From: Candidatus Palauibacter sp.
GTDB taxonomy: Bacteria; Gemmatimonadota; Gemmatimonadetes; Palauibacterales; Palauibacteraceae
NCBI RefSeq assembly: GCF_965237495.1
Contig: NZ_OZ250143.1
Span: 1,866,130-1,930,129, forward strand
DNA length: 64,000 nucleotides
Reading direction: 5' to 3'
Within the stretch, counting starts at the first letter, position 1; each line of letters starts with the position of its first letter. Below the pieces are notes generated by a model, which was given only the letters and a program-made list of their open reading frames with translations, did not search any database and was not told the DNA's origin. Made by a program: the position numbers and the translations under genes. This document shows, in pieces, positions 7,449 to 16,536 of the stretch.

Positions 7449-8224
7449 CGGCCCGCATCGCGGGGCAACTCGCGCTCGTCACCGGGGCCAGCGCGGGGAT
7501 CGGCGAGGCCATCGCGCGCCGGATGGCCCGCGATGGCGCGAACCTCGTGCTGTGGGCCCGCCGCTCGGACCGGCTCGCACAGCTGGCGGAGGAGATCGCC
7601 TCGACCACCGGGGTGAACGTGCAGACCGGTGTCGTCGATGTCCGCGATCACGAGGCCGTGGTGGCCGAGGCGGACCGGCTCATGGCCGAGACCGGGGCGC
7701 CCGACATCGTCATCAACAACGCCGGGCTCGCCGCGGGCATGGCGCTCGTTCAGGACGCCGAGGTCGACGACTGGAACCGCATGATCGACACGAACGTGAA
7801 GGGGCTGCTGTTCGTGACGCGCGCCTTCCTGCCGGCCATGGTCGCGCGGGACTCGGGCCATGTGGTCAATATCGGGAGCATCGCGGGCCGGCAGGTCTAC
7901 CCGGGCGGGAGCGTCTACTGCGCCTCGAAGTACGCCGTCCAGGCGCTCACCGAGGGGTCGAACCTCGACGTCCTGGGTACGGGGGTTCGCGTGTCGGGGG
8001 TCAACCCCGGAATGGTCGAGACCGAGTTCTCCCTCGTCCGCTTCGGCGGCGACGCTGCACGCGCCCGGGCGGTGTACGAGGGCACGCATCCCCTTCGACC
8101 GGAGGACGTAGCGGAGGTGGTCTCCTTCGTGCTCAACGCCCCACCCCACATCAACGTGGCCGACGTCATCGTCCTCTCGAACAGCCAGGGCAGCATACAC
8201 CACATCCACCGCGACGGGGGATGA
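7445..8224 (+). CDS. SDR-family NAD(P)-dependent oxidoreductase
   Basis: TTG start overlapping the upstream stop (TTGA); TGASAGIG, NNAG, catalytic YCASK. Confidence 0.8.
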   Translation: MTARIAGQLALVTGASAGIGEAIARRMARDGANLVLWARRSDRLAQLAEEIASTTGVNVQTGVVDVRDHEAVVAEADRLMAETGAPDIVINNAGLAAGMALVQDAEVDDWNRMIDTNVKGLLFVTRAFLPAMVARDSGHVVNIGSIAGRQVYPGGSVYCASKYAVQALTEGSNLDVLGTGVRVSGVNPGMVETEFSLVRFGGDAARARAVYEGTHPLRPEDVAEVVSFVLNAPPHINVADVIVLSNSQGSIHHIHRDGG

Positions 8225-8991
8225 GCGTCGCAGGGATCGCCGGACTCTTCATCGCCTGTCGGGACCCGGTTCACGTCCGCGAATGGTACCACCACCACCT
8301 CGGGCTCCGGTTCTCCGAGGGTGAGGGCGCACGTTTTTTCTGGCGTGAGGCCGACAGCGGAAGGCTCGCCGTCAGCCATCTCGATTTCCTCGACGAGACC
8401 ACCTCGTCCTTCCACCCCGGTACACAGCCGTTCATGGTTCGCTACCGGGTTCGCGACCTCGAGACGCTGGCCGATACACTGCGCGCAGGCGGCGACGACC
8501 TGACGATTCAGCACGGTCGGGGCGGGGGGATCATCGATCCGAACGGCCAGCGGGTGGAACTCCTGGAGGCGGTCGAACCGCCCGGACGTTCCGTCGACCA
8601 CGGGCGGGTGCAGGGGATCGGGGGCGTCTTCTTCCGCTCGCCCGACCCGGCCTCGCTGAAGACGTGGTACGCGAAGCTCGGGATCCGTCCGGGGCCTGAC
8701 GGATACGTTACGTTCCCGGCCAGTTCACCAGACGGGAGCGAGACGTTCACGGCCTGGGAAGTCTTCCCTTCGGACACCACCTACTTTGACTCCCGGGGGG
8801 AGCGCAGCCCGCACCCCTTCATGCTCAACCTGCGCGTGGCGGATCTCGACGGATTCGTGGAGAGGCTGCGCGCGGCAGGTGTGTGGGTCGATCCGAACAT
8901 CGAGTCCTACGACTACGGAAAGTTCGCCTGGATCGTGGACCCCGTCGGCGCCCGGGTCGAACTCTGGGAGCCCGCTCCGACCGCGAGCTGA
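8221..8991 (+). CDS. VOC (glyoxalase/bleomycin-resistance/dioxygenase) family protein, two-domain
   Basis: ATG 8221 overlapping the SDR stop (ATGA); 256 aa; its last ~75 codons recur at 13356..13586. Confidence 0.6.
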   Translation: MSVAGIAGLFIACRDPVHVREWYHHHLGLRFSEGEGARFFWREADSGRLAVSHLDFLDETTSSFHPGTQPFMVRYRVRDLETLADTLRAGGDDLTIQHGRGGGIIDPNGQRVELLEAVEPPGRSVDHGRVQGIGGVFFRSPDPASLKTWYAKLGIRPGPDGYVTFPASSPDGSETFTAWEVFPSDTTYFDSRGERSPHPFMLNLRVADLDGFVERLRAAGVWVDPNIESYDYGKFAWIVDPVGARVELWEPAPTAS

Positions 8992-9040
8992 CGCCGTTCC
9001 GGGCCCGGCGCCCCGCTCCTGGGTTCGCGCCACCGAACGC

Positions 9041-9082
9041 TTGACTCGTTCCGATATATCGTAGTATGTTTCGATATATCGA
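9041..9082 (+). promoter_or_regulatory. putative promoter plus paired palindromic PadR operator, copy A
   Basis: TTGACT (9041-46); palindrome CGATATATCG (9052-61) in the spacer; TAGTAT (9062-67); second palindrome TCGATATATCGA (9071-82); palindrome centres 20 bp apart; RBS and ATG at 9108. Confidence 0.5.
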
Positions 9083-9107
9083 GACCAGTCGGAACGAGGA
9101 GAGCGTG

Positions 9108-10176
9108 ATGTTTACGAATCGGGACGGTTTCGGCGCATGGGCGAACTGCTGCGGGCCCCGGCGTCTTCCGCTTCACCGGCGCCAGCGGGTTCGGCCCCAA
9201 ACGGCGCATCGTTCGGAAGGGCGACCTCAAGTTCGTCCTGCTCAGACTTCTCTCCGACGAGCCCATGCACGGCTACGAACTCATGCGGCGGCTGGAGGAG
9301 GAGTCGGGCGGGCTCTATACCCCGAGCCCGGGCTCCGTCTACCCCACCCTGCAGCTGCTCGAGGATCAGGGATACGTGTCCTCGACCCAGGAGGACGGCA
9401 AGCGCGTCTATCGGCTCACGGCCGAGGGTCGCGCCTTTCTCGACGAACACGGCTCCAGAACGCGCGACATCTTCGGCCGTTTCGTGAACATGGGCGAACG
9501 GTTCACCGGGTCGGCAATGCGCGAGGTCACGCGCTCCTTCATCCACCTCGCCCAGGTCAGCTTCGAACGGGCGACGGGCGGGCAGGGTGATCCCGAGACC
9601 CTGGCGAGAGTCAAGGCGATTCTCGACCGCGCCGCCCGCGAAATCGAGACCGCGTGGCCGGAACCGAGTCCCGCAGCATCCCGGGAGGTCCGAATCATGC
9701 TCGAATTGGCATTCCTGGGGATCATCGTTTTGGCGTTCTACCGTCGCCTCACGCGGTCGCGGGGATGGAGCCGGGCTGATTTGTGGCGGGCCCTGACCAA
9801 ACTGGAACGACGGCTGCGACGCGGGGTCGTCCCCGGTCGGCAGGCGGGACCAGGCCTGATGGCGCAATGCGCGGCCGATTTGAAGAGCCTGGGAGAGGAT
9901 ATGTTTGGGGTTGTCAGCCCTGAAGCCCGCGCTCGACTCCGACGAAGCGTCCGGAACCGGACATCTCGGCCGGCGCGGGGCCGGGTACACCGGAGTGACG
10001 GAGCGATGTCAGACGCGTCAGACCCCGCGTTCGCCCGGCTCCAGCGCCGCTATCTCGATGGACGGATCAGCCTCGAGGAATATGTGGAGGCGGCCCGGAG
10101 ACTCCGCAGCGGGAGACCGCCGCGCTTAGCCCGGTCGGACAGAAGAGGACACGCCTCCGCCGGTCTTAGCGGTTAG
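9108..10176 (+). pseudogene. PadR-family regulator copy A, frameshifted after codon ~15 and fused in frame to the downstream SHOCT-domain membrane protein
   Basis: ATG 9108 reads MFTNRDGFGAWANCC then leaves the PadR frame (extra G in a G-run plus a 6-nt indel at ~9150-9185 relative to copy B); the wHTH ([26 protein letters not shown]) is readable only in frame +1 from ~9217; no stop separates PadR from the TM+SHOCT part (REVRIMLELAFLGIIV...RLQRRYLDGRISLEEYVEAARRL). It could also be a sequencing error. Confidence 0.55.
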
Positions 10177-10243
10177 AAAGCCACAGCTTGGGCGGAGCCC
10201 GAGAGCGGCTCCCCAACCTAGAAGCGCTACCCCGGAATTCGCT

Positions 10244-11560
10244 GTGCCTGAGGTCCCCGAAACTGTTATCGTAGGTTGGGCGATTCGATTCGGTTGTTCT
10301 TGGCGTTGTTCAAAGGAAGAGGAGCGGGAGGTGGGGGTAGCGAGGGGAGCTTTTTCTAAGACCGCAGTCAATCGACGAGAGATCCCGCAGGCGGTCCTAG
10401 ACATCACCAGACGCGCGCGGGCCAATCCCTTGCCGTGGCGAGGCCAGTTTTCTCCGCAACTCGTGGATGCGCTGCTCGGACGGTACTGGCCTAGCGGCAC
10501 TACGGTCCTCGATCCGTTCATGGGGAGCGGCACCGTCTTGCTGGAATCGGGGCTCGTCGGAGCGTCCGCTAGAGGTGCCGAGGTGAACCCGGGCGCTCTC
10601 TTGTTGGCCCGACTCTACACGCTGATCAACATCGAACCTCCGGCACGCACCACGCTGCTTACAGATCTCGATTCGCGTCTCCGAGATCACTTTGGCGACG
10701 TATCGCTATTCAAGTCTACTCCAGGACTTCCGCAAGACCTCCAGCACCTGTGCGATTTCCGAGCGACTCTGGAGTTGGACGAACAAACCACACTGCTGGA
10801 TGCAGCGATTATTCTTTCGGATTTTCCACGAACTGCTGAGCCGGTCGACTTTCTGAGGCACTGGACCAAGGTGCGGGATCTCGTCCAGAAGTTGCCATAC
10901 TCCAAAGCCCCCATCGAGACGTTCGCCGCGGATGCCCGGGATCTACCGTTACCGAATGATGATGTGGGCCTCGTGATCACGTCACCACCTTACATCAACG
11001 TCTTCAACTATCATCAGCAATACCGAGGGTCGGTCGAAGGACTAGGCTATGATGTCTTAGATGCCGCACGATCTGAAGTTGGTTCGAATCGCAAGCACCG
11101 TCAGAATCGCTTCTTAACGGTCATCCAATACATCTTGGACCTGTCTCTAGCCATGAAGGAGATGACTCGCGTCGCTGCCAACGGAACTCGACTCATCCTC
11201 GTCGTTGGTCGCGAATCCAATGTGCTTGGGACGCCATTCTTCAACGGCGCCATCATAGCAGAGATTGGAAGTAAGGTGCTTGGCCTACCAATTACGTTGC
11301 GGCAGGAGCGGGTGTTCACAAATCGTTTCGGAAAGAGAATCTTCGAAGACATCCTGCATTTCGAGAACAAGCAGGTAAGCGGAGACGTTCTGGGCTCGGC
11401 TCGTATCCTTGCAGCAGAGGTCCTAGCTTCGGCTGTCCGACGTAGTGAACCGGGGGTTCGCCGCTTGATCGACGGTGCAGGAAAACAGATATTAGAGGTT
11501 GATCCCTCCCCCCGTTTCACAGGCCGGGCGGGACTCCCGGCCTCACCCCAAGTTGGATAG
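10244..11560 (+). CDS. DNA amino-methyltransferase (N6-adenine or N4-cytosine), R-M modification subunit
   Basis: Motif I DPFMGSGT (~aa 90) and motif IV ITSPPY (~aa 245); motif order I then IV (alpha-like); a GTG at 10331 has a better RBS (GAGGAG) and may be the true start. Confidence 0.75.
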   Translation: MPEVPETVIVGWAIRFGCSWRCSKEEEREVGVARGAFSKTAVNRREIPQAVLDITRRARANPLPWRGQFSPQLVDALLGRYWPSGTTVLDPFMGSGTVLLESGLVGASARGAEVNPGALLLARLYTLINIEPPARTTLLTDLDSRLRDHFGDVSLFKSTPGLPQDLQHLCDFRATLELDEQTTLLDAAIILSDFPRTAEPVDFLRHWTKVRDLVQKLPYSKAPIETFAADARDLPLPNDDVGLVITSPPYINVFNYHQQYRGSVEGLGYDVLDAARSEVGSNRKHRQNRFLTVIQYILDLSLAMKEMTRVAANGTRLILVVGRESNVLGTPFFNGAIIAEIGSKVLGLPITLRQERVFTNRFGKRIFEDILHFENKQVSGDVLGSARILAAEVLASAVRRSEPGVRRLIDGAGKQILEVDPSPRFTGRAGLPASPQVG

Positions 11561-11568
11561 GGACCCAG

Positions 11569-12483
11569 ATGGCACTCCCCACTCCTCATGGCGACAAGCT
11601 TCGGGCCCTTGCAGACAACCCGAAGCTCCCAACCGAAGACAGCCCGCGTGTCGCAGATGCGATTGGACGCTATGACAAATGGATTGAAGAGCTTGAAGAC
11701 GTCGACAATGAGAGTGCTACCGTTGTGACGGAGTTGGTGACTTTGCTGTCCAACTACAAGATGTCGGTGGATCTTGATCTTGTATTCGATAGCCCCGCAG
11801 ACTTTCTATACAGGCAGAAAGGCCAGATCAAGCTTGACAACACGATCTTGGAGGAATTCCTACCCTGGCTAGTTTGGGCCGTATTTTCGAGAGATTTGAA
11901 CGACCTTGACGTTCACCTTGGTCCCGCAACTTGTTTTTCTGCTGTCCAATTTGTGTCAGAACTGAGAGCGCCTGCTCCCGGCGGAGGTATGAGGGTGAGA
12001 TCCAAGGATCAGGATTTTGCTATCGCCCGAAAGATCTACCTCCGTACGTCGCATGAGCCAACATTTGAAGCAGTAACGGACGCAGAGGCAGCCATCGCCT
12101 ATCTTGTCGCGGAAATCAAGACCAACCTTGACAAAACCATGTTCCAAGAAGCCGCAGCCACGGCGGCCGACGTTAAGCTCGCTGTACCTGGCGCCCGTTA
12201 TCTTCTTCTCTGCGAATGGCTCGATATGACACCCATCCGGACAGCCGGTACGGCCATCGATGAAGTAGTGATACTGCGCAAGAGCAAGCGGCTCTCGTCA
12301 TCAGTCCGGCAGCACTTCGCAAACGCCGAGGGACGCCGCGCTTCTCGAGCGGCGTTCGAAGAACACTTAGTCTCCAACCCCTTCTCTACAGACTCGTTCC
12401 AGCGTCTTCTCAAGCATGTGGGGCAGCTAATGGCTGACCCCAACCTAAGCGAGCGCGGGATTCTGGAACGCGGCTGGTTCTAG
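11569..12483 (+). CDS. putative Type II restriction endonuclease (family unassigned)
   Basis: 304-aa ORF 8 nt downstream of the MTase on the same strand, GC ~50%; possible PD-(D/E)xK-like residues (D...EIK near aa 150-180); called mainly from context. Confidence 0.4.
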   Translation: MALPTPHGDKLRALADNPKLPTEDSPRVADAIGRYDKWIEELEDVDNESATVVTELVTLLSNYKMSVDLDLVFDSPADFLYRQKGQIKLDNTILEEFLPWLVWAVFSRDLNDLDVHLGPATCFSAVQFVSELRAPAPGGGMRVRSKDQDFAIARKIYLRTSHEPTFEAVTDAEAAIAYLVAEIKTNLDKTMFQEAAATAADVKLAVPGARYLLLCEWLDMTPIRTAGTAIDEVVILRKSKRLSSSVRQHFANAEGRRASRAAFEEHLVSNPFSTDSFQRLLKHVGQLMADPNLSERGILERGWF

Positions 12484-13352
12484 CCTGAATCGGTCAAGCC
12501 GAGTTTCTCCGTGATACTCACTACCGGTGCCAGGGGCTCCGGGTGAAGCCTGACTCCGTCATCTCCTTGATCTGCGGCGCCAGGAATATGAGCGCGATCA
12601 GGTTCGGAATGGATGACGATGGCCAGGAACACGTCTCCCAGCGCCCACATCACAGCCAGCGGCAGGACGGCACCAATGAAGTGCATCGCGACGAACACGA
12701 GCTTGCACGGGATGATTCACGCGGCCCGAACAGGTAGTTCGCACAGCGGTCGCCGTAGTAGCTCCACGAGATCGCGGTGGAGATGGCGAACAGGAACACC
12801 GAGAAGATCACGATGTAGTGGCCCCAGTCGCCGAGCGGCGCAGTCCCCGCTGGAACCCCATCTGGGTCAGGGGCGCGCCCGTCTCGTAGGCCTGCCCGTA
12901 CAGCACCGTCAGCTCCCGCCCGTCGTCGGTGATCGCAACCCGCGCGCGCCGGGTCCACGGCGGCGCTGAACGGCTGGTCGTGCGCCTCATCCTCGAACAA
13001 CTGCGGCACCGAGACCTCGTGCCACGCTTACGTGCGGCTCGCTCGTCACGCCCGGCCGCCCCAGCGTGTAGCGGATCGTCCCCGTGGGATCGGTGGGCAC
13101 CGAGGAGCCGCCTTCGTCGAGGACGACGTAGCTCAGATCCCCGCCCTCAAGCGCGATCTCGGTGTCGACCTGTTCATTCCAGGCCCCGGTCATGATCACG
13201 ACGAGCTCAGTCATGGTCGCGATGAACGATCGTGTCGATGAACGGCTCGAGCAGCGCGACGACCCCATCGGAGACCGGCTCATCGGTCTTCCCCGCCGCG
13301 TGCGCGATCGGCGCCGAGCCCTGCCCCACCTCGCTCGAGAACAGTCCGCTGG
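12483..13352 (-). pseudogene. fragment of a Na+:alanine symporter gene (C-terminal ~half), broken by several frameshifts
   Basis: Pieces across three minus frames match the intact gene at 14839..15740: [40 protein letters not shown]; TGAWNEQVDTEIALEGGDLSYVVLDEGGSSVPTDPTGTIRYTLGRPGVTSEPHV; [16 protein letters not shown]...[35 protein letters not shown]; [25 protein letters not shown]. Confidence 0.75.
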
Positions 13353-13355
13353 GAG

Positions 13356-13586
13356 GTGTTCCCCTCGAACACGACCTACTTCGACTCGAAGGGCGAGCCG
13401 AGCCCCCACCGCTACATGCCAAACCTGCGCGTCCAGGACCTCGACGGGCTCGTCGCGTCGCTACGCGGAGGCGGCGTCTGGGTCGACCCGAACACGGAAG
13501 CCTGCGAGTACGGGAAGTTCGCCTGGATCGTCGACCCCACGGGCGCACGCGTCGAACTGTGGGAGCCCGCTCCCGCCGCGAGCTGA
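13356..13586 (+). pseudogene. detached duplicate of the VOC gene 3' end (76 codons)
   Basis: [76 protein letters not shown] matches the C-terminus of the VOC protein at 8760..8991; no N-terminal domain present. Confidence 0.7.
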
Positions 13587-13714: not shown

Positions 13715-14293
13715 ATGTTCACGAACCGAGACGGACTCGGCGCCTGGGCGAACTGCTGTGGCCCCGGCGTCTTCCGCTTCTCCGGAGGCTTCGGCCCCAA
13801 GCGGCGGATCGTTCGAAAGGGCGAACTGAAGTTCGTCCTCCTCCGGCTCCTCGCCGACGAGGCGATGCACGGCTACGAGCTGATGCGGCGGCTGGAGGAG
13901 GAGTCCGGCGGGCTCTATACGCCGAGCCCGGGCTCCGTATACCCCACCCTGCAATTGCTCGAAGACCAGGGCTACGTCTCCTCGACGCAGGAGGACGGCA
14001 AGCGCGTCTACCGGCTCACGTCCGAGGGCCACGCCTTCCTCGAGGAACACGGCTCCCGGACCCGCGACATCTTCGGCCGCTTGGTGAACATGGGCGAGCG
14101 TTTCACCGGGGCCGCGATGCGCGAGGTCACGCGCTCGTTCATCCACCTCGCCCAGGTGAGCTTCGAGCGGGCCACGGGCGGGCACGGCGATCCGGAAACT
14201 CTGGCGAGGGTAAAGGCAATCCTCGACCGTGCCGCCCGCGAGATCGAGACCGCGTGGCCGGAGCCCGGATCCGCCGTGACCCGGGAGGCGTGA
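13715..14293 (+). CDS. PadR-family transcriptional regulator (intact copy B)
   Basis: 192 aa; w[57 protein letters not shown]; GGAGG RBS. Confidence 0.85.
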
Positions 14294-14296
14294 GCC

Positions 14297-14758
14297 ATGT
14301 TTGAATTCGCGCTTCTGGGAGTGATCGCGGTATGGCTCTGCCGTCGCCAGGGCTGGGGTCGGGCCGACCTGCAACGAGCCCTCGGCAAGCTGGGGCGTGT
14401 GGGCCGGAGCGCCATCGCTACCACGCATCGAGCCTTGCCTGGCCTGCTCGCGCAGTGCGCGGCGGACATGAAGGGCCTCGTGGAGGACACCGCCCGGTTC
14501 CTGCCTTCGGGCGCGCGGGCTCGTCTCGAACGGCGCGCGCGGAAACCCTCGACCCGCTCCAACCGCGGTCTTGACCGGGCCCCCGTCCGCGACGGCGGCA
14601 GAGCCATCGCGACCGCGAGCCCGAGACCCGAAGACCGGGCCGTCGCCCGCCTCCAGCGCCACTATGTCGACGGCCGCATCAGCCTCGAGGAATACGTCGA
14701 GGGCGCCGGCAGGCTCCGGACGGGGAGTCCCCGGACCCTCGCCCGTCCGCCGCGGTAG
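14297..14758 (+). CDS. small membrane protein with C-terminal SHOCT domain, co-transcribed with PadR
   Basis: Starts 4 nt after the PadR stop; N-terminal TM helix MFEFALLGVIAVWLC; C-terminal ARLQRHYVDGRISLEEYVEGAGRL (SHOCT-like). Confidence 0.6.
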   Translation: MFEFALLGVIAVWLCRRQGWGRADLQRALGKLGRVGRSAIATTHRALPGLLAQCAADMKGLVEDTARFLPSGARARLERRARKPSTRSNRGLDRAPVRDGGRAIATASPRPEDRAVARLQRHYVDGRISLEEYVEGAGRLRTGSPRTLARPPR

Positions 14759-14838
14759 GCTGTCCCGGGAAGAGTCCGCCGACGCGACCGTCGCACGTCG
14801 GCAACGACGCCTCTGCCGGCGCTACATGACCGTACGAC

Positions 14839-16536
14839 CTACCGTCCGCGCTGACGCTGCCAAGGACTGCGAGTGAAGTAGGACTCCGTCATCTCCTTGA
14901 TCTTCGGCGTCAGGAAGATGAGCGCGATCAGGTTCGGGATGATGACGATGGCCAGGAACACGTCGCCCAGCGCCCACACCACGGCCAGCGGCAGAACCGC
15001 ACCGATGAAGTGCATCCCGACGAACACGAGCTTGTAGGGGATGATCGCGCGCTGCCCGAACAGGTAGTTCGCGCAGCGGTCGCCGTAGTAGCTCCAGGAG
15101 ATCGCCGTCGAGATCGCGAACAGGAACACCGAGAAGATCACGATGTAATGGCCCCAGTCGCCGAGCGGCTCGAGGCCCCTCCGGAACCCCATCTGCGTCA
15201 GCGGCGCGCCCGTCTCGTAGGCCTGCCCGTACAGCACCGCCAGCTCCCGCCCGTCGTCGGCGACCGCCACTTCACGCGCCGGGTCGACGGCGCCGCTGAA
15301 CGGCTGCGTGTGCGCCTCGTCCTCGAACAACTGCGAAACGGAAACCTCGTGCCACGCCACGTGCGGCTCGCTCGTCACGCCCGGCCGCCCCAGCGTGTAG
15401 CGGATCGTCCCGGTCGGGTCCGTGGGCACGGAGCTGCCGTCTTCGTCGAGCACCACATAGCTCAGATCCCCGCCCGCGAGTGCCATCTCGGTGTCGACCT
15501 GTTCGTTCCAGGCCCCGGTCATGATCACGACGAGCGCCGTCATGGTCACGATGACGATCGTGTCGATGAACGGCTCGAGCAGCGCGACGACCCCTTCGGA
15601 GACCGGCTCATCGGTCTTCGCCGCCGCGTGCGCGATCGGCGCCGAGCCCTGCCCCGCCTCGTTCGAGAACAGCCCGCGCCGCACGCCCCACATCAGCGTG
15701 ACGAGGAACGCGCCCACGCCGGTGCCGGCCACCCCGGCGGTCGGATTGAACGCCTCCCGGAAGATGAGCGCGAAGGTTCCCGGCACCTGGTCGAGGTTGA
15801 GGATGATGATGAGCATCGCGGCGCTCACGTAGAGGATCGCCATGGCCGGGGCGAGGATGCTCGTGACGCGGCCGATGCGCTTGATCCCGCCCAGGATCAC
15901 GAGCGCGACGAGCGTTGAGGTGGCGAGCCCGGTCATCCACTTGGCGATCCCGAATTCGGACAGCATCGCGTCCGCGACCGTGTTCGCCTGGTTGGCGTTC
16001 CCCGTGAGGAAGGCCGTCAGCCCCAGCATGACCGCGAAGAACGCCGCCACGGGCTTCCAGCGCGGACCGAGTCCCTTCTCGATGTAGTACATCGGTCCGC
16101 CGGACACCGTCCCGCTGTATTTCGCCGAGGATTCGTCGACCTCGCGGTACCTCTGCGCCAGCGTAACCTCGCTGAACTTCGTCGCCATGCCGAGGAAGGC
16201 CGTCATCCACATCCAGAACAGCGCCCCCGGCCCTCCGAGATGGATCGCGATCGCGGCGCCGGCGATGTTCCCGATCCCCACCGTGGCGCTGAGCGCGGTG
16301 GTCAGCGCCTGGAAGTGCGAAACGTCGCCCGGATCGTCCGGGTCGTCGTAGCGGCCGGTGGCGACCGCGACGCCGTGCGCGAACTTGCGGATCTGCGGCA
16401 GGCCCAGCTTCAGCGTGAGGTAGGTCCCGATGCCGAGGAGGAGCAGGACCTGAAGCGTCAGGCGCTCTCCAGCGATCGTGATCCCGAACTGCGCGATGTT
16501 CCGGTCGAGCCAGTCGACGATTGTGGCGAAGTCCAT
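14839..16536 (-). CDS. sodium:alanine (amino acid) symporter, AGCS family, with a ~115-aa hydrophilic insertion
   Basis: Start ATG (cat at 16534-36) gives MDFATIVDWLDRNIAQFGITIAGE...GIGNIAGAAIAIHLGGPGALFWMWMTAFLGMATKFSEV, the canonical AGCS N-terminus; 565 aa; the ORF-track N-terminal extension to 17874 is rejected. Confidence 0.85.
   Translation of the reverse strand: MDFATIVDWLDRNIAQFGITIAGERLTLQVLLLLGIGTYLTLKLGLPQIRKFAHGVAVATGRYDDPDDPGDVSHFQALTTALSATVGIGNIAGAAIAIHLGGPGALFWMWMTAFLGMATKFSEVTLAQRYREVDESSAKYSGTVSGGPMYYIEKGLGPRWKPVAAFFAVMLGLTAFLTGNANQANTVADAMLSEFGIAKWMTGLATSTLVALVILGGIKRIGRVTSILAPAMAILYVSAAMLIIILNLDQVPGTFALIFREAFNPTAGVAGTGVGAFLVTLMWGVRRGLFSNEAGQGSAPIAHAAAKTDEPVSEGVVALLEPFIDTIVIVTMTALVVIMTGAWNEQVDTEMALAGGDLSYVVLDEDGSSVPTDPTGTIRYTLGRPGVTSEPHVAWHEVSVSQLFEDEAHTQPFSGAVDPAREVAVADDGRELAVLYGQAYETGAPLTQMGFRRGLEPLGDWGHYIVIFSVFLFAISTAISWSYYGDRCANYLFGQRAIIPYKLVFVGMHFIGAVLPLAVVWALGDVFLAIVIIPNLIALIFLTPKIKEMTESYFTRSPWQRQRGR

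What the first reader, a model, noticed from the sequence alone, without database searches (positions are those of the whole stretch)
10244..12483. Low-GC MTase + endonuclease pair: the endonuclease has no recognisable family, so it is a candidate new Type II enzyme
The MTase has the unambiguous motif I DPFMGSGT and motif IV SPPY. SPPY rather than DPPY/NPPY is more often seen in N4-cytosine enzymes, though the motif order I then IV is alpha-like.

The 304-aa downstream ORF (8-nt spacer, same strand, GC ~50% against ~70% for the host) shows no family signature I can place. It has only a possible D...E-I-K catalytic pattern. Specificity is unknown. The strong GC contrast marks a recent transfer from a lower-GC donor.
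Basis: partly seen in the sequence, partly recalled or inferred. Interest (0 to 1): 0.55.

Follow-up and report, generated by a model that had tools for sequence, protein, structure and literature searches.

The report
Bsu36I-like restriction-modification gene cassette
This is an ordinary two-gene restriction-modification defence cassette whose endonuclease belongs to the well-known Bpu10I/BbvCI/Bsu36I family and is already labelled as such in NCBI, so it is not a new kind of enzyme.

Summary
The two ORFs, the motifs, the 8-nt spacer and the GC dip are real. The central claim, that the endonuclease has no recognisable family, is wrong.

**Endonuclease.** The 304-aa protein matches Pfam PF09549 (RE_Bpu10I) end to end (E=6.5e-85). 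NCBI already names it [quoted passage not shown]. Its predicted fold matches only BbvCI. The catalytic D149...E182-I-K184 aligns with the mutagenised BbvCI residues.

**Architecture.** Characterised Bpu10I and BbvCI have two subunits. This clade has one MTase plus one REase in 65 of 65 related loci, so it should act as a homomer on a palindrome.

**Specificity.** The recognition residues (D-K-T-M loop, D219, R241) match the BbvCI subunit that reads the CC half-site. CCTNAGG is also the most depleted interrupted palindrome inside the cassette genes. I predict CC^TNAGG, like Bsu36I (about 0.6).

**MTase.** The true start is probably 10331 (409 aa). It carries TSPPY and resembles a Pandoravirus MTase annotated as N4-cytosine-specific, so N4mC is likely.

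**Origin.** The cassette (GC 0.55-0.57, host 0.69) is absent from the closest relatives. It arrived inside a ~5.1-kb block of DNA from another Palauibacter lineage.

**Verdict.** An uncharacterised new member of a known kind; low interest.

The parts
10216..10330 (+). Conserved leader of the cassette (presumed promoter and ribosome-binding site; GGAGG just before the GTG start).
   Evidence: The 72% nucleotide identity with the closest homologous cassette (L002, unrelated genomic context) begins at 10216. No sigma-70 consensus match was found, so the promoter is inferred, not shown.
10331..11560 (+). DNA methyltransferase, 409 aa from GTG 10331. It is an amino-MTase with motif I DPFMGSGT (aa 61-68) before motif IV TSPPY (aa 217-221) and a ~100-aa helical insert between them. 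It is probably N4-cytosine-specific. The maximal ORF starts at 10244.
   Evidence: Pfam PF01555 (3.1e-8) and PF01170. PADLOC MTase_II at 2e-18. 3,831 homologues of 404-430 aa. Motifs are invariant in a 32-sequence alignment. AF2 model pLDDT 89.8. Best viral structural match is Pandoravirus dulcis S4VQ82, annotated cytosine-N4-specific (E=4.3e-32, TM 0.82, 36% identity).
11561..11568 (+). 8-nt spacer between the MTase stop and the REase ATG. The two genes are likely co-transcribed.
   Evidence: Read directly from the sequence. Homologous cassettes have the same tight M-to-R order.
11569..12483 (+). Restriction endonuclease, 304 aa, Bpu10I/BbvCI/Bsu36I family (PD-(D/E)XK). Catalytic residues are D149, E182 and K184. 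The recognition loop is D188-K-T-M191. The outer-base-pair residues are D219 and R241.
   Evidence: PF09549 at E=6.5e-85 over the full profile. BbvCI R2 at 3.5e-11 and R1 at 2.4e-10 by sequence. Foldseek against the PDB finds only BbvCI chains (E down to 1.6e-15, TM 0.62-0.84). The key residues are invariant in 42 homologues. Residue mapping by multiple alignment.
10138..12516 (.). Whole insert relative to the empty site of close relatives. It fills the short convergent intergenic space between the PadR operon and the Na+/alanine symporter gene.
   Evidence: In L007 and L008 the PadR-operon end and the symporter end lie about 30 bp apart, with no cassette. tblastn with M and R finds nothing in 80 related loci.
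8260..13349 (.). About 5.1 kb of imported DNA of another Palauibacter lineage (L009-like). It carries glyoxalase*, PadR*, the R-M cassette and a symporter 3' fragment. The left end is a homologous crossover at about 8230-8290. The right end is an illegitimate join at 13349/13350.
   Evidence: Informative-site runs switch from L008-like to L009-like near 8250 and back to L008-like at 13350. Sliding identity agrees. The right junction has 0-1 bp of microhomology.
12517..13349 (-). Decayed 3' fragment of the donor's Na+/alanine symporter gene (a pseudogene with at least 3 frameshifts).
   Evidence: 86-96% identical to the intact gene at 14855-15677. 91% identical to L009 against 87% to L008. It is split over three reading frames.
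13356..13586 (+). 3' remnant of the native glyoxalase gene, truncated by the import.
   Evidence: A 76-aa ORF matches the C-terminus of the full gene at 8221-8991. It is 97-99% identical to L008.

Best explanation
This is a two-gene Type IIP restriction-modification cassette. The 409-aa amino-methyltransferase modifies both strands of a palindromic site in host DNA, most likely by N4-methylation of a cytosine. The 304-aa PD-(D/E)XK endonuclease of the Bpu10I/BbvCI/Bsu36I family cuts unmodified copies of that site in incoming DNA.

There is one subunit gene and one MTase gene. The enzyme should therefore act as a homo-oligomer, either a dimer or, by analogy with BbvCI, a dimer of dimers. Two identical active sites (D149/E182/K184) would cut two bases into each half-site and leave 3-nt 5' overhangs.

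The most likely site is CC^TNAGG, which would make it a Bsu36I isoschizomer.

Shown here: family membership, fold, intact catalytic residues, the one-M-plus-one-R architecture, and horizontal acquisition. Inferred: the site, the methylated base, the oligomeric state, and activity in vivo.

The cassette reached this genome inside a ~5.1-kb block of DNA from another Palauibacter lineage. One end was integrated by homologous crossover and the other by an illegitimate join.
For: **Family**
- PF09549 at E=6.5e-85 over the full profile.
- BbvCI R2 and R1 by sequence.
- Only BbvCI chains match significantly by fold, TM up to 0.84.
- NCBI names it 'Bpu10I family restriction endonuclease'.

**Catalysis and essential residues**
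- D149, E182 and K184 align with the BbvCI residues shown essential by mutagenesis (PMC6326814; alignment). They are invariant in 42 homologues.
- E216 aligns with R2 E211, whose mutation abolishes activity.

**Homomeric architecture**
- 65 of 65 homologous loci with room upstream have one homologous MTase directly upstream and exactly one REase-family gene.
- There is no second M or R homologue anywhere in the window.

**Specificity**
- The loop 3 aa after the catalytic Lys is D-K-T-M. Met marks an unspecified central base in Bsu36I, BlpI and Bpu10I.
- D219 and R241 equal BbvCI R1 D204 and R227, proposed readers of the outer C:G of the CC half-site. They do not equal R2 K214 and N236.
- Q86 equals R2 Gln83, the proposed T:A reader.
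- In 138 cassette coding segments, against a synonymous-codon shuffle, CCTNAGG occurs 4 times against about 20 expected. No shuffle of 200 was as low. It ranks 1 of 64 and has the lowest ratio of 144 palindromes tested. GCTNAGC occurs 21 times against 19 expected.

**MTase**
- I-T-S-P-P-Y is invariant.
- The best viral structural relative is annotated cytosine-N4-specific.
- Pandoraviruses carry N4mC only, including at CCTNAGG.

**Acquisition**
- Empty site in L007 and L008, a foreign-lineage block, and an abrupt junction.
- The redundant imported genes have frameshifts while both R-M ORFs are intact. This argues that the cassette is maintained.
Against: - No enzymatic or methylome data exist.
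- The assignment of D/R to the outer C:G pair is called speculative by its own authors. I could not obtain the Bsu36I or BlpI sequences to check it.
- CCTNAGG is also depleted in control genes without the cassette (ratio 0.45-0.61). Host genes beside homologous cassettes (0.58) and this window's host genes (5 against 6.5) show no extra avoidance. The cassette-internal signal of 0.21 is therefore only about 2-3 times beyond baseline (rough Poisson P about 0.01-0.03).
- The paper text does not say which motif Pandoravirus S4VQ82 methylates.
- The N4 versus N6 question is not settled by any test here.
- No promoter consensus was found upstream.
Confidence: 0.9

Rival explanations
1. Same family and same homomeric mechanism, but a different palindromic site: GC^TNAGC (BlpI-like), or another NCTNAGN-type or new 7-bp palindrome.
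For: The family contains BlpI (GC^TNAGC), and the authors call the outer-base assignment speculative. Nearly all 44 diverse family representatives share D-K-T-M, D and R, so these positions may not discriminate specificities. Baseline depletion of CCTNAGG in unrelated genes weakens the avoidance argument.
Against: D219 and R241 match the CC-reading BbvCI subunit, not the GC-reading one. GCTNAGC is not depleted in cassette genes (21 against 19), while CCTNAGG is the most depleted of 64. One GCTNAGC lies inside the MTase gene itself, at 10835.
Confidence: 0.25
2. A heterodimeric Type IIT enzyme like Bpu10I or BbvCI that needs a second, different subunit and cuts an asymmetric site.
For: The two best-characterised family members, Bpu10I and BbvCI, are heteromeric, and their single subunits are inactive alone.
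Against: There is no second family member in the window or next to any of 82 homologous cassettes, and only one MTase, whereas Type IIT systems normally have two. [quoted passage not shown]
Confidence: 0.03
3. One reading: the 304-aa protein is a founder of a new Type II endonuclease family.
For: NCBIfam and PADLOC have no specific model for it.
Against: Full-length Pfam match at E=6.5e-85, sequence hits to both BbvCI subunits, a fold match only to BbvCI, and the existing NCBI name.
Confidence: 0.01
4. The cassette is an inactive remnant, for example an orphan MTase beside a dead endonuclease gene.
For: No activity data exist. The imported block around it is decaying. Catalytically dead family members do exist (P0263 lacks the D and the K).
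Against: Both ORFs are full length. All catalytic and recognition residues that are invariant across 42 (REase) and 32 (MTase) homologues are intact. The adjacent 832-bp symporter fragment has at least 3 frameshifts, against none in 2.15 kb of R-M coding sequence.
Confidence: 0.07
5. Context only: the duplicated flanks come from an old tandem duplication within this genome, followed by divergence and a separate insertion of the cassette. They do not come from import of foreign-lineage DNA.
For: The order A, R-M, B', A', B is formally that of a tandem duplication with an insert in copy 1.
Against: Copy 1 and B' are closer to another species (L009: 92% and 91%) than to this genome's own lineage (L008: 77% and 87%). 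Foreign-type informative sites start about 500 bp to the left of the repeat boundary, inside single-copy DNA. The closest relatives have a single copy.
Confidence: 0.08

Closest known systems
Bsu36I (CC^TNAGG), the homomeric Type IIP member of the Bpu10I/BbvCI family
   Same: It is in the same protein family according to Shen et al. 2019 (PMC6326814). It has a single subunit type, Met at the central-base position of the recognition loop, and Gln at the proposed T:A-reading position. The predicted site and cut position are the same.
   Different: I could not retrieve the Bsu36I sequence or its MTase type, so identity to it and isospecificity are inferred, not measured. The host here is an uncultured Gemmatimonadota (Candidatus Palauibacter), not a Bacillus.
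BbvCI (CC^TCAGC; structures 6eg7, 6m9g, 6maf, 6mag)
   Same: The fold matches (TM up to 0.77 on the query and 0.84 on the target). The PD-(D/E)XK residues are in register. The recognition loop sits 3 residues after the catalytic Lys. D219 and R241 equal R1 D204 and R227.
   Different: Sequence identity is only 17-24%. BbvCI is an R1/R2 heteromer that reads an asymmetric site and specifies the central base through R1 Lys176. Here there is one subunit, with Met at that position.
Bpu10I (CC^TNAGC), the founding member of Pfam PF09549
   Same: Full-length match to the family model, and Met at the central-base position.
   Different: Bpu10I has two different subunits. As I recall from Stankevicius et al. 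1998 (not held in the library), it also has two m5C MTases. Here there is a single amino-MTase with no PF00145 match.
BlpI (GC^TNAGC)
   Same: Same family and homomeric.
   Different: Its half-site begins with G. The query carries the residues of the CC-reading BbvCI subunit rather than the GC-reading one, and GCTNAGC is not avoided in cassette genes.
Pandoravirus dulcis DNA MTase S4VQ82 (annotated cytosine-N4-specific)
   Same: It is the best structural match of the MTase in the viral library (E=4.3e-32, TM 0.82, 36% identity). Pandoravirus genomes carry N4mC, including at CCTNAGG.
   Different: It is a solitary viral MTase with no REase. The text I could read does not say which motif it writes.
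Homology-facilitated illegitimate recombination, and R-M insertion 'with long target duplication'. These concepts are from my own knowledge of the literature (de Vries and Wackernagel; Kobayashi group), not checked here.
   Same: One end of the foreign block joins by homology and the other by an abrupt join with 0-1 bp of microhomology. The R-M genes end up flanked by direct repeats of host-type genes.
   Different: The repeats are not a duplication of the recipient's own DNA. They are one donor copy and one native copy, 76-96% identical.

Membership tests
Bpu10I/BbvCI/Bsu36I/BlpI restriction endonuclease family (Pfam PF09549) | Full-length match to the family profile above the curated threshold | tested here: met
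   284.6 bits against a cut-off of 25, E=6.5e-85, profile positions 1-218 of 218.
Bpu10I/BbvCI/Bsu36I/BlpI restriction endonuclease family (Pfam PF09549) | PD-(D/E)XK catalytic residues in register with the mutagenised BbvCI residues (R1 D140/E167/K169; R2 D146/E177/K179) | tested here: met
   D149, E182 and K184 align with them and are invariant in 42 homologues. The BbvCI residues are from PMC6326814.
Bpu10I/BbvCI/Bsu36I/BlpI restriction endonuclease family (Pfam PF09549) | BbvCI-type fold | tested here: met
   The AF2 model has pLDDT 89.9. The only significant PDB matches are BbvCI chains (E 1.6e-15 to 8.5e-8). The next hit, PspGI, is at E=0.1.
Bpu10I/BbvCI/Bsu36I/BlpI restriction endonuclease family (Pfam PF09549) | Four-residue recognition loop 3 aa after the catalytic Lys, with Met where the central base is unspecified | tested here: met
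   D188-K-T-M191 follows K184-T-N-L.
Bpu10I/BbvCI/Bsu36I/BlpI restriction endonuclease family (Pfam PF09549) | Cleaves a 7-bp NCTNAGN-type site two bases in, leaving 3-nt 5' overhangs | not testable with these tools
   This needs in-vitro digestion and run-off sequencing.
Type IIT heteromeric enzymes (Bpu10I, BbvCI) | Two different, similar-sized subunit genes side by side | tested here: not met
   There is one family member in the window and one per locus in 82 homologous loci.
Type IIT heteromeric enzymes (Bpu10I, BbvCI) | Two MTases, one per strand of an asymmetric site | tested here: not met
   A single MTase gene lies directly upstream in 65 of 65 loci.
Homomeric Type IIP branch (Bsu36I-like, CC^TNAGG) | One R gene and one M gene | tested here: met
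Homomeric Type IIP branch (Bsu36I-like, CC^TNAGG) | Residues proposed to read the outer C:G pair (Asp and Arg, as BbvCI R1 D204 and R227) | tested here: met
   D219 and R241. The authors call the assignment itself speculative.
Homomeric Type IIP branch (Bsu36I-like, CC^TNAGG) | Avoidance of the recognition site in DNA exposed to the enzyme | tested here: inconclusive
   In cassette genes the ratio is 0.21 (rank 1 of 64). Host genes next to cassettes (0.58), control genes without a cassette (0.45-0.61) and this window's host genes (0.77) do not differ from one another.
N6/N4 amino-DNA-methyltransferases (Pfam PF01555) | AdoMet-binding motif I (FxGxG) and catalytic motif IV ((D/N/S)PP(Y/F)) | tested here: met
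   DPFMGSGT and TSPPY are both invariant in 32 homologues. PF01555 scores 34.3 bits against a cut-off of 26.7.
N4-cytosine-specific subgroup of amino-MTases | T-S-P-P-Y type motif IV (as I recall, PROSITE N4_MTASE is [LIVMF]-T-S-P-P-[FY]) and N4mC as the product | tested here: inconclusive
   The sequence I-T-S-P-P-Y is present, and the closest viral structure is annotated N4C-specific. The product base cannot be determined from sequence.
C5-cytosine MTases (the partner type of Bpu10I and DdeI, from memory) | Match to PF00145 and the m5C motif set | tested here: not met
   Only PF01170, PF01555 and a sub-threshold PF08241 hit were found.

The most novel reading that the evidence does not exclude
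This large and uncharacterised one-M-plus-one-R clade pairs a Bpu10I-family nuclease with an amino-MTase (probably N4C) that has no solved structural relative. Its members are only 17-24% identical to BbvCI. The clade could have a specificity not yet described for the family. In addition, such cassettes may spread between related species by dragging neighbouring host genes along as a one-sided homology anchor (homology-facilitated illegitimate recombination), without any mobility gene.
Probability: 0.2. Interest if true: 0.35.

Novelty: new member of a known kind. Interest (0 to 1): 0.15.

Why it matters
It matters little for enzyme discovery. The family, fold and catalytic mechanism are known, and the predicted site would duplicate that of a commercial enzyme (Bsu36I).

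There are three modest points of value:
1. The sequence-based specificity call (CC^TNAGG, N4mC) is easy to test. A result would check the residue-to-base assignments that Shen et al. proposed for BbvCI.
2. The public annotation of the MTase is wrong. It is called as a truncated 'hypothetical protein', so automated surveys would score this as a solitary endonuclease gene.
3. The locus is a clean natural example of an R-M cassette moving between species inside a block of homeologous DNA. One end joined by homology and the other illegitimately, and the redundant passenger genes are decaying while the R-M genes stay intact.

Tried and rejected
CCTNAGG occurs 6 times against 6-14 expected, and GCTNAGC 11 times against 9-15. 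This is uninformative.
2. **Host avoidance in 235 kb flanking homologous cassettes.** CCTNAGG ranked 1 of 64 under a Markov null (13 against 42). I rejected this as evidence because cassette-free control loci show the same depletion (ratios 0.31 and 0.44). The depletion also disappears as a specific signal under a codon-shuffle null.
3. **A recognition site conserved in the promoter as a sign of autoregulation.** CCTGAGG lies 84 nt upstream of the MTase start (10247). It is not conserved in L002, and CCTNAGG is not enriched upstream of 56 homologous MTase genes.
4. **Linking Pandoravirus S4VQ82 to the CCTNAGG motif.** The assignment sits in a figure and is not in the text or supplements I could read.
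5. **Finding the MTase type of Bsu36I, BlpI and relatives in the literature.** Nothing useful turned up, and the Bpu10I cloning paper is not held.
6. **A solved DNA-MTase structure for class assignment.** Only the motif-I region matches by sequence. By fold, only generic Rossmann MTases match.
7. **A defence-island reading of the insertion site.** The different insert in L009 matches no defence family.
8. **NCBIfam and PADLOC.** Neither has a specific model for the endonuclease.
Full report
**1. The observation**

Both ORFs exist as described: 10244-11560 (+, 438 aa from GTG) and 11569-12483 (+, 304 aa from ATG). They lie on the same strand, 8 nt apart.

DPFMGSGT and SPPY are present in that order. 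The 304-aa protein has D149 and E182-I183-K184.

GC falls to 0.51-0.58 across 10600-12600, against 0.66-0.73 around it. Per gene:

| Feature | GC | GC3 |
|---|---|---|
| MTase | 0.567 | 0.61 |
| REase | 0.544 | 0.59 |
| Neighbouring genes | 0.67-0.70 | 0.77-0.92 |

So the GC contrast is real, but the cassette is at 54-57% GC, not about 50%.

The MTase more likely starts at GTG 10331 (409 aa). A metagenome gene caller chose that start. Homologues of 404-430 aa cover 94-100% of the 409-aa version. The nearest homologous cassette starts at the equivalent GTG, behind a conserved GGAGG.

**2. The endonuclease has a family**

- The 304-aa protein matches Pfam PF09549 (RE_Bpu10I) at E=6.5e-85 over the whole model.
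- It hits both subunits of BbvCI in the PDB by sequence (3.5e-11 and 2.4e-10).
- The identical sequence is in NCBI under the name 'Bpu10I family restriction endonuclease [Candidatus Palauibacter sp.]'.
- It has more than 2,800 homologues at 90% clustering and 401 clusters at 50% identity.
- A confident AlphaFold model (pLDDT 89.9) matches only BbvCI chains among solved structures (E 1.6e-15 to 8.5e-8, TM 0.62-0.84). The next hit, PspGI, is at E=0.1.

D149, E182 and K184 align with BbvCI R1 D140/E167/K169 and R2 D146/E177/K179. Those residues were shown to be catalytic by mutagenesis (PMC6326814; alignments). They are invariant in 42 homologues.

**3. What kind of family member it is**

The characterised family comprises two heteromers and two homomers:

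| Enzyme | Site | Subunits |
|---|---|---|
| Bpu10I | CC^TNAGC | heteromer |
| BbvCI | CC^TCAGC | heteromer |
| Bsu36I | CC^TNAGG | homomer |
| BlpI | GC^TNAGC | homomer |

Type IIT heteromers have two subunit genes and normally two MTases. Here there is one of each.

- tblastn finds no second copy of either gene in the window.
- Among 82 homologous loci from metagenomes, every one of the 65 with room upstream has a single homologous MTase directly upstream on the same strand. Each has exactly one family endonuclease gene.

This is the homomeric, palindrome-cutting branch of the family.

**4. Predicted specificity**

Shen et al. place the readers of the inner base pairs in a four-residue loop 3 aa after the catalytic Lys. 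The loop is D-K-N-K in R1 and E-R-N-M in R2. Its last residue faces the central base pair: Lys specifies it, and Met, as in Bsu36I, BlpI and Bpu10I, does not. They tentatively assign the outer base pair to R1 D204 plus R227 (the C:G of the CC half-site) and to R2 K214 plus N236 (the G:C of the GC half-site).

In a multiple alignment that includes the BbvCI fragments, the query has:
- the loop D188-K-T-M191;
- D219 and R241, which are the R1 (CC) type;
- Q86 at the position of the proposed T:A reader R2 Gln83;
- E216 at the position of the essential R2 E211.

All of these residues are invariant in the clade. This predicts two CCTN half-sites, that is CC^TNAGG.

An independent statistical test points the same way, but only modestly. 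I took 138 coding segments (135.6 kb) of homologous cassettes. I compared them with synonymous-codon shuffles that keep each protein and its codon usage.
- CCTNAGG occurs 4 times against about 20 expected. None of 200 shuffles was as low. It ranks 1 of 64 interrupted palindromes and has the lowest observed/expected ratio of 144 palindromes of three classes.
- GCTNAGC occurs 21 times against 19 expected.

Controls temper this result. CCTNAGG is also depleted in genes of cassette-free Gemmatimonadota loci (ratios 0.45 and 0.61), in host genes beside the cassettes (0.58), and not significantly in this window's own genes (5 against 6.5). An apparent rank-1 depletion in host flanks under a Markov null is fully matched by the controls, so I do not count it. 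Against a baseline of about 0.5, the cassette value of 0.21 corresponds to a rough Poisson P of 0.01-0.03.

I put CC^TNAGG at about 0.6. Another palindrome of the family type gets about 0.25.

**5. The methyltransferase**

It is an amino-MTase: PF01555 and PF01170 and PADLOC MTase_II at 2e-18. Motif I (aa 61-68) comes before motif IV (T217-S-P-P-Y221). In the model (pLDDT 89.8), a helical insert of about 100 residues lies between them and is presumably the target-recognition region.

No solved DNA-MTase structure resembles it beyond the motif-I region. In the viral structure library the one strong match is Pandoravirus dulcis S4VQ82, annotated cytosine-N4-specific (E=4.3e-32, TM 0.82, 36% identity). 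Jeudy et al. found only N4mC in pandoraviruses, including at CCTNAGG, written by MTases acquired from prokaryotes. The text does not say which motif S4VQ82 writes.

With the invariant I-T-S-P-P-Y, N4-cytosine is the better guess. As I recall, that sequence is the PROSITE N4 signature. N6-adenine is not excluded.

As I recall from Stankevicius et al. 1998, Bpu10I is accompanied by m5C MTases. Here there is no PF00145 match, so the nuclease family is paired with a different MTase family in this clade.

NCBI calls this gene as a 340-aa 'hypothetical protein' starting at TTG 10538, just after motif I.

**6. How it got here**

The flanks look duplicated, but they are not a duplication of this genome's own DNA. 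The closest relatives (L007 and L008, 94-100% identical in the surroundings) have a single glyoxalase-PadR-symporter array. Only about 30 bp separate the PadR operon from the convergent symporter gene, and there is no cassette. None of 80 related loci encodes either protein.

A three-way comparison gives 536 informative sites on the left side.
- The window is L008-like up to about 8250.
- It is L009-like (another Palauibacter species) from there to 10130.
- It is L009-like again in the symporter fragment 12517-13349.
- It is L008-like again from 13350.

The sliding identities agree. The right junction is abrupt, with 0-1 bp of microhomology.

The simplest reading is a single import of about 5.1 kb from a donor that already carried the cassette between PadR and the symporter. 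The left end was anchored by a homologous crossover at the start of the glyoxalase gene. The right end was joined illegitimately inside the native glyoxalase gene, which removed about 490 bp of it.

The passenger genes that became redundant are decaying. The symporter fragment has at least 3 frameshifts. The imported PadR copy has lost its N-terminal helix through an indel and reads through the stop that separates the two genes in the native copy. The 2.15 kb of R-M coding sequence is intact.

The unit shared with the nearest homologous cassette, which lies in an unrelated context and is also lower in GC than its host (0.58 against 0.70), runs from 10216 to exactly the REase stop at 12483. It is 72% identical at the nucleotide level. 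The cassette contains no mobility gene.

The immediate donor, however, was a high-GC relative, and only the cassette's ultimate origin is lower-GC.

**7. Verdict**

This is an intact, horizontally acquired Type IIP R-M cassette. Its endonuclease belongs to the Bpu10I/BbvCI/Bsu36I family, in the homomeric branch. It probably cuts CC^TNAGG, and its MTase is probably N4C-specific.

It is a new, uncharacterised member of a known kind, and its family is already recognised in public annotation. Interest is low (0.15).

The most novel reading not excluded is a new specificity in this large clade, together with cassette spread by one-sided homology. I rate that at about 0.2 probability and modest interest.

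Noticed in passing
window 8260-13349: A block of about 5.1 kb from another Palauibacter lineage (L009-like) lies inside an L008-like genome. It has a homologous crossover on the left (about 8230-8290) and an abrupt join with 0-1 bp of microhomology on the right (13349/13350). It carries the R-M cassette plus donor copies of glyoxalase, PadR and a symporter fragment, which makes the flanks look duplicated.
   Followed up: yes
window 12517-13349 (-), 9107-10176 (+), 13356-13586 (+): Redundant genes created by the import are decaying. The symporter fragment has at least 3 frameshifts. The imported PadR copy has an indel after 'ANCCGP' that removes its start and first helix, and it reads through the stop that splits the native pair (13715-14293 and 14297-14758). 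The native glyoxalase gene survives only as a 76-aa 3' remnant.
   Followed up: partly
window 10538 (TTG) to 11560: NCBI annotates the MTase as a 340-aa 'hypothetical protein' that starts just after motif I (P0121). In the public record the endonuclease therefore appears to have no methyltransferase partner.
   Followed up: yes
L009 9998-13722: A related species has an unrelated 3.7-kb insert at the same PadR/symporter junction. It has three ORFs of 386, 250 and 475 aa and native-like GC. There is no PADLOC hit and only a sub-threshold beta-propeller Pfam hit. The junction is a variable site.
   Followed up: partly
protein P0247 (720 aa): This is a single polypeptide that fuses the same MTase family (N-terminal, with DPFAGSGT and TSPPY) to the same endonuclease family (C-terminal residues 421-720).
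   Followed up: no
protein P0263 (328 aa): This family member has Gly in place of the catalytic Asp, Gln in place of the catalytic Lys, and a degenerate recognition loop (N-K-N-S). It is probably an inactive derivative.
   Followed up: no
window 10247-10253: The only CCTNAGG in or near the cassette (CCTGAGG) lies 84 nt upstream of the MTase start. It is not conserved in the closest cassette (L002), and the motif is not enriched upstream of 56 homologous MTase genes.
   Followed up: partly
loci L007-L086 (1.1 Mb, Gemmatimonadota): All NCTNAGN words (CCTNAGG, ACTNAGT, TCTNAGA) are generally under-represented, even against a synonymous-codon shuffle, in loci that lack this cassette. Any site-avoidance argument must subtract this baseline.
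   Followed up: partly
window 14719-16500 (symporter gene, - strand): Informative sites alternate between L008-like and L009-like runs. This suggests further recombination between lineages within this gene, independent of the cassette import.
   Followed up: no
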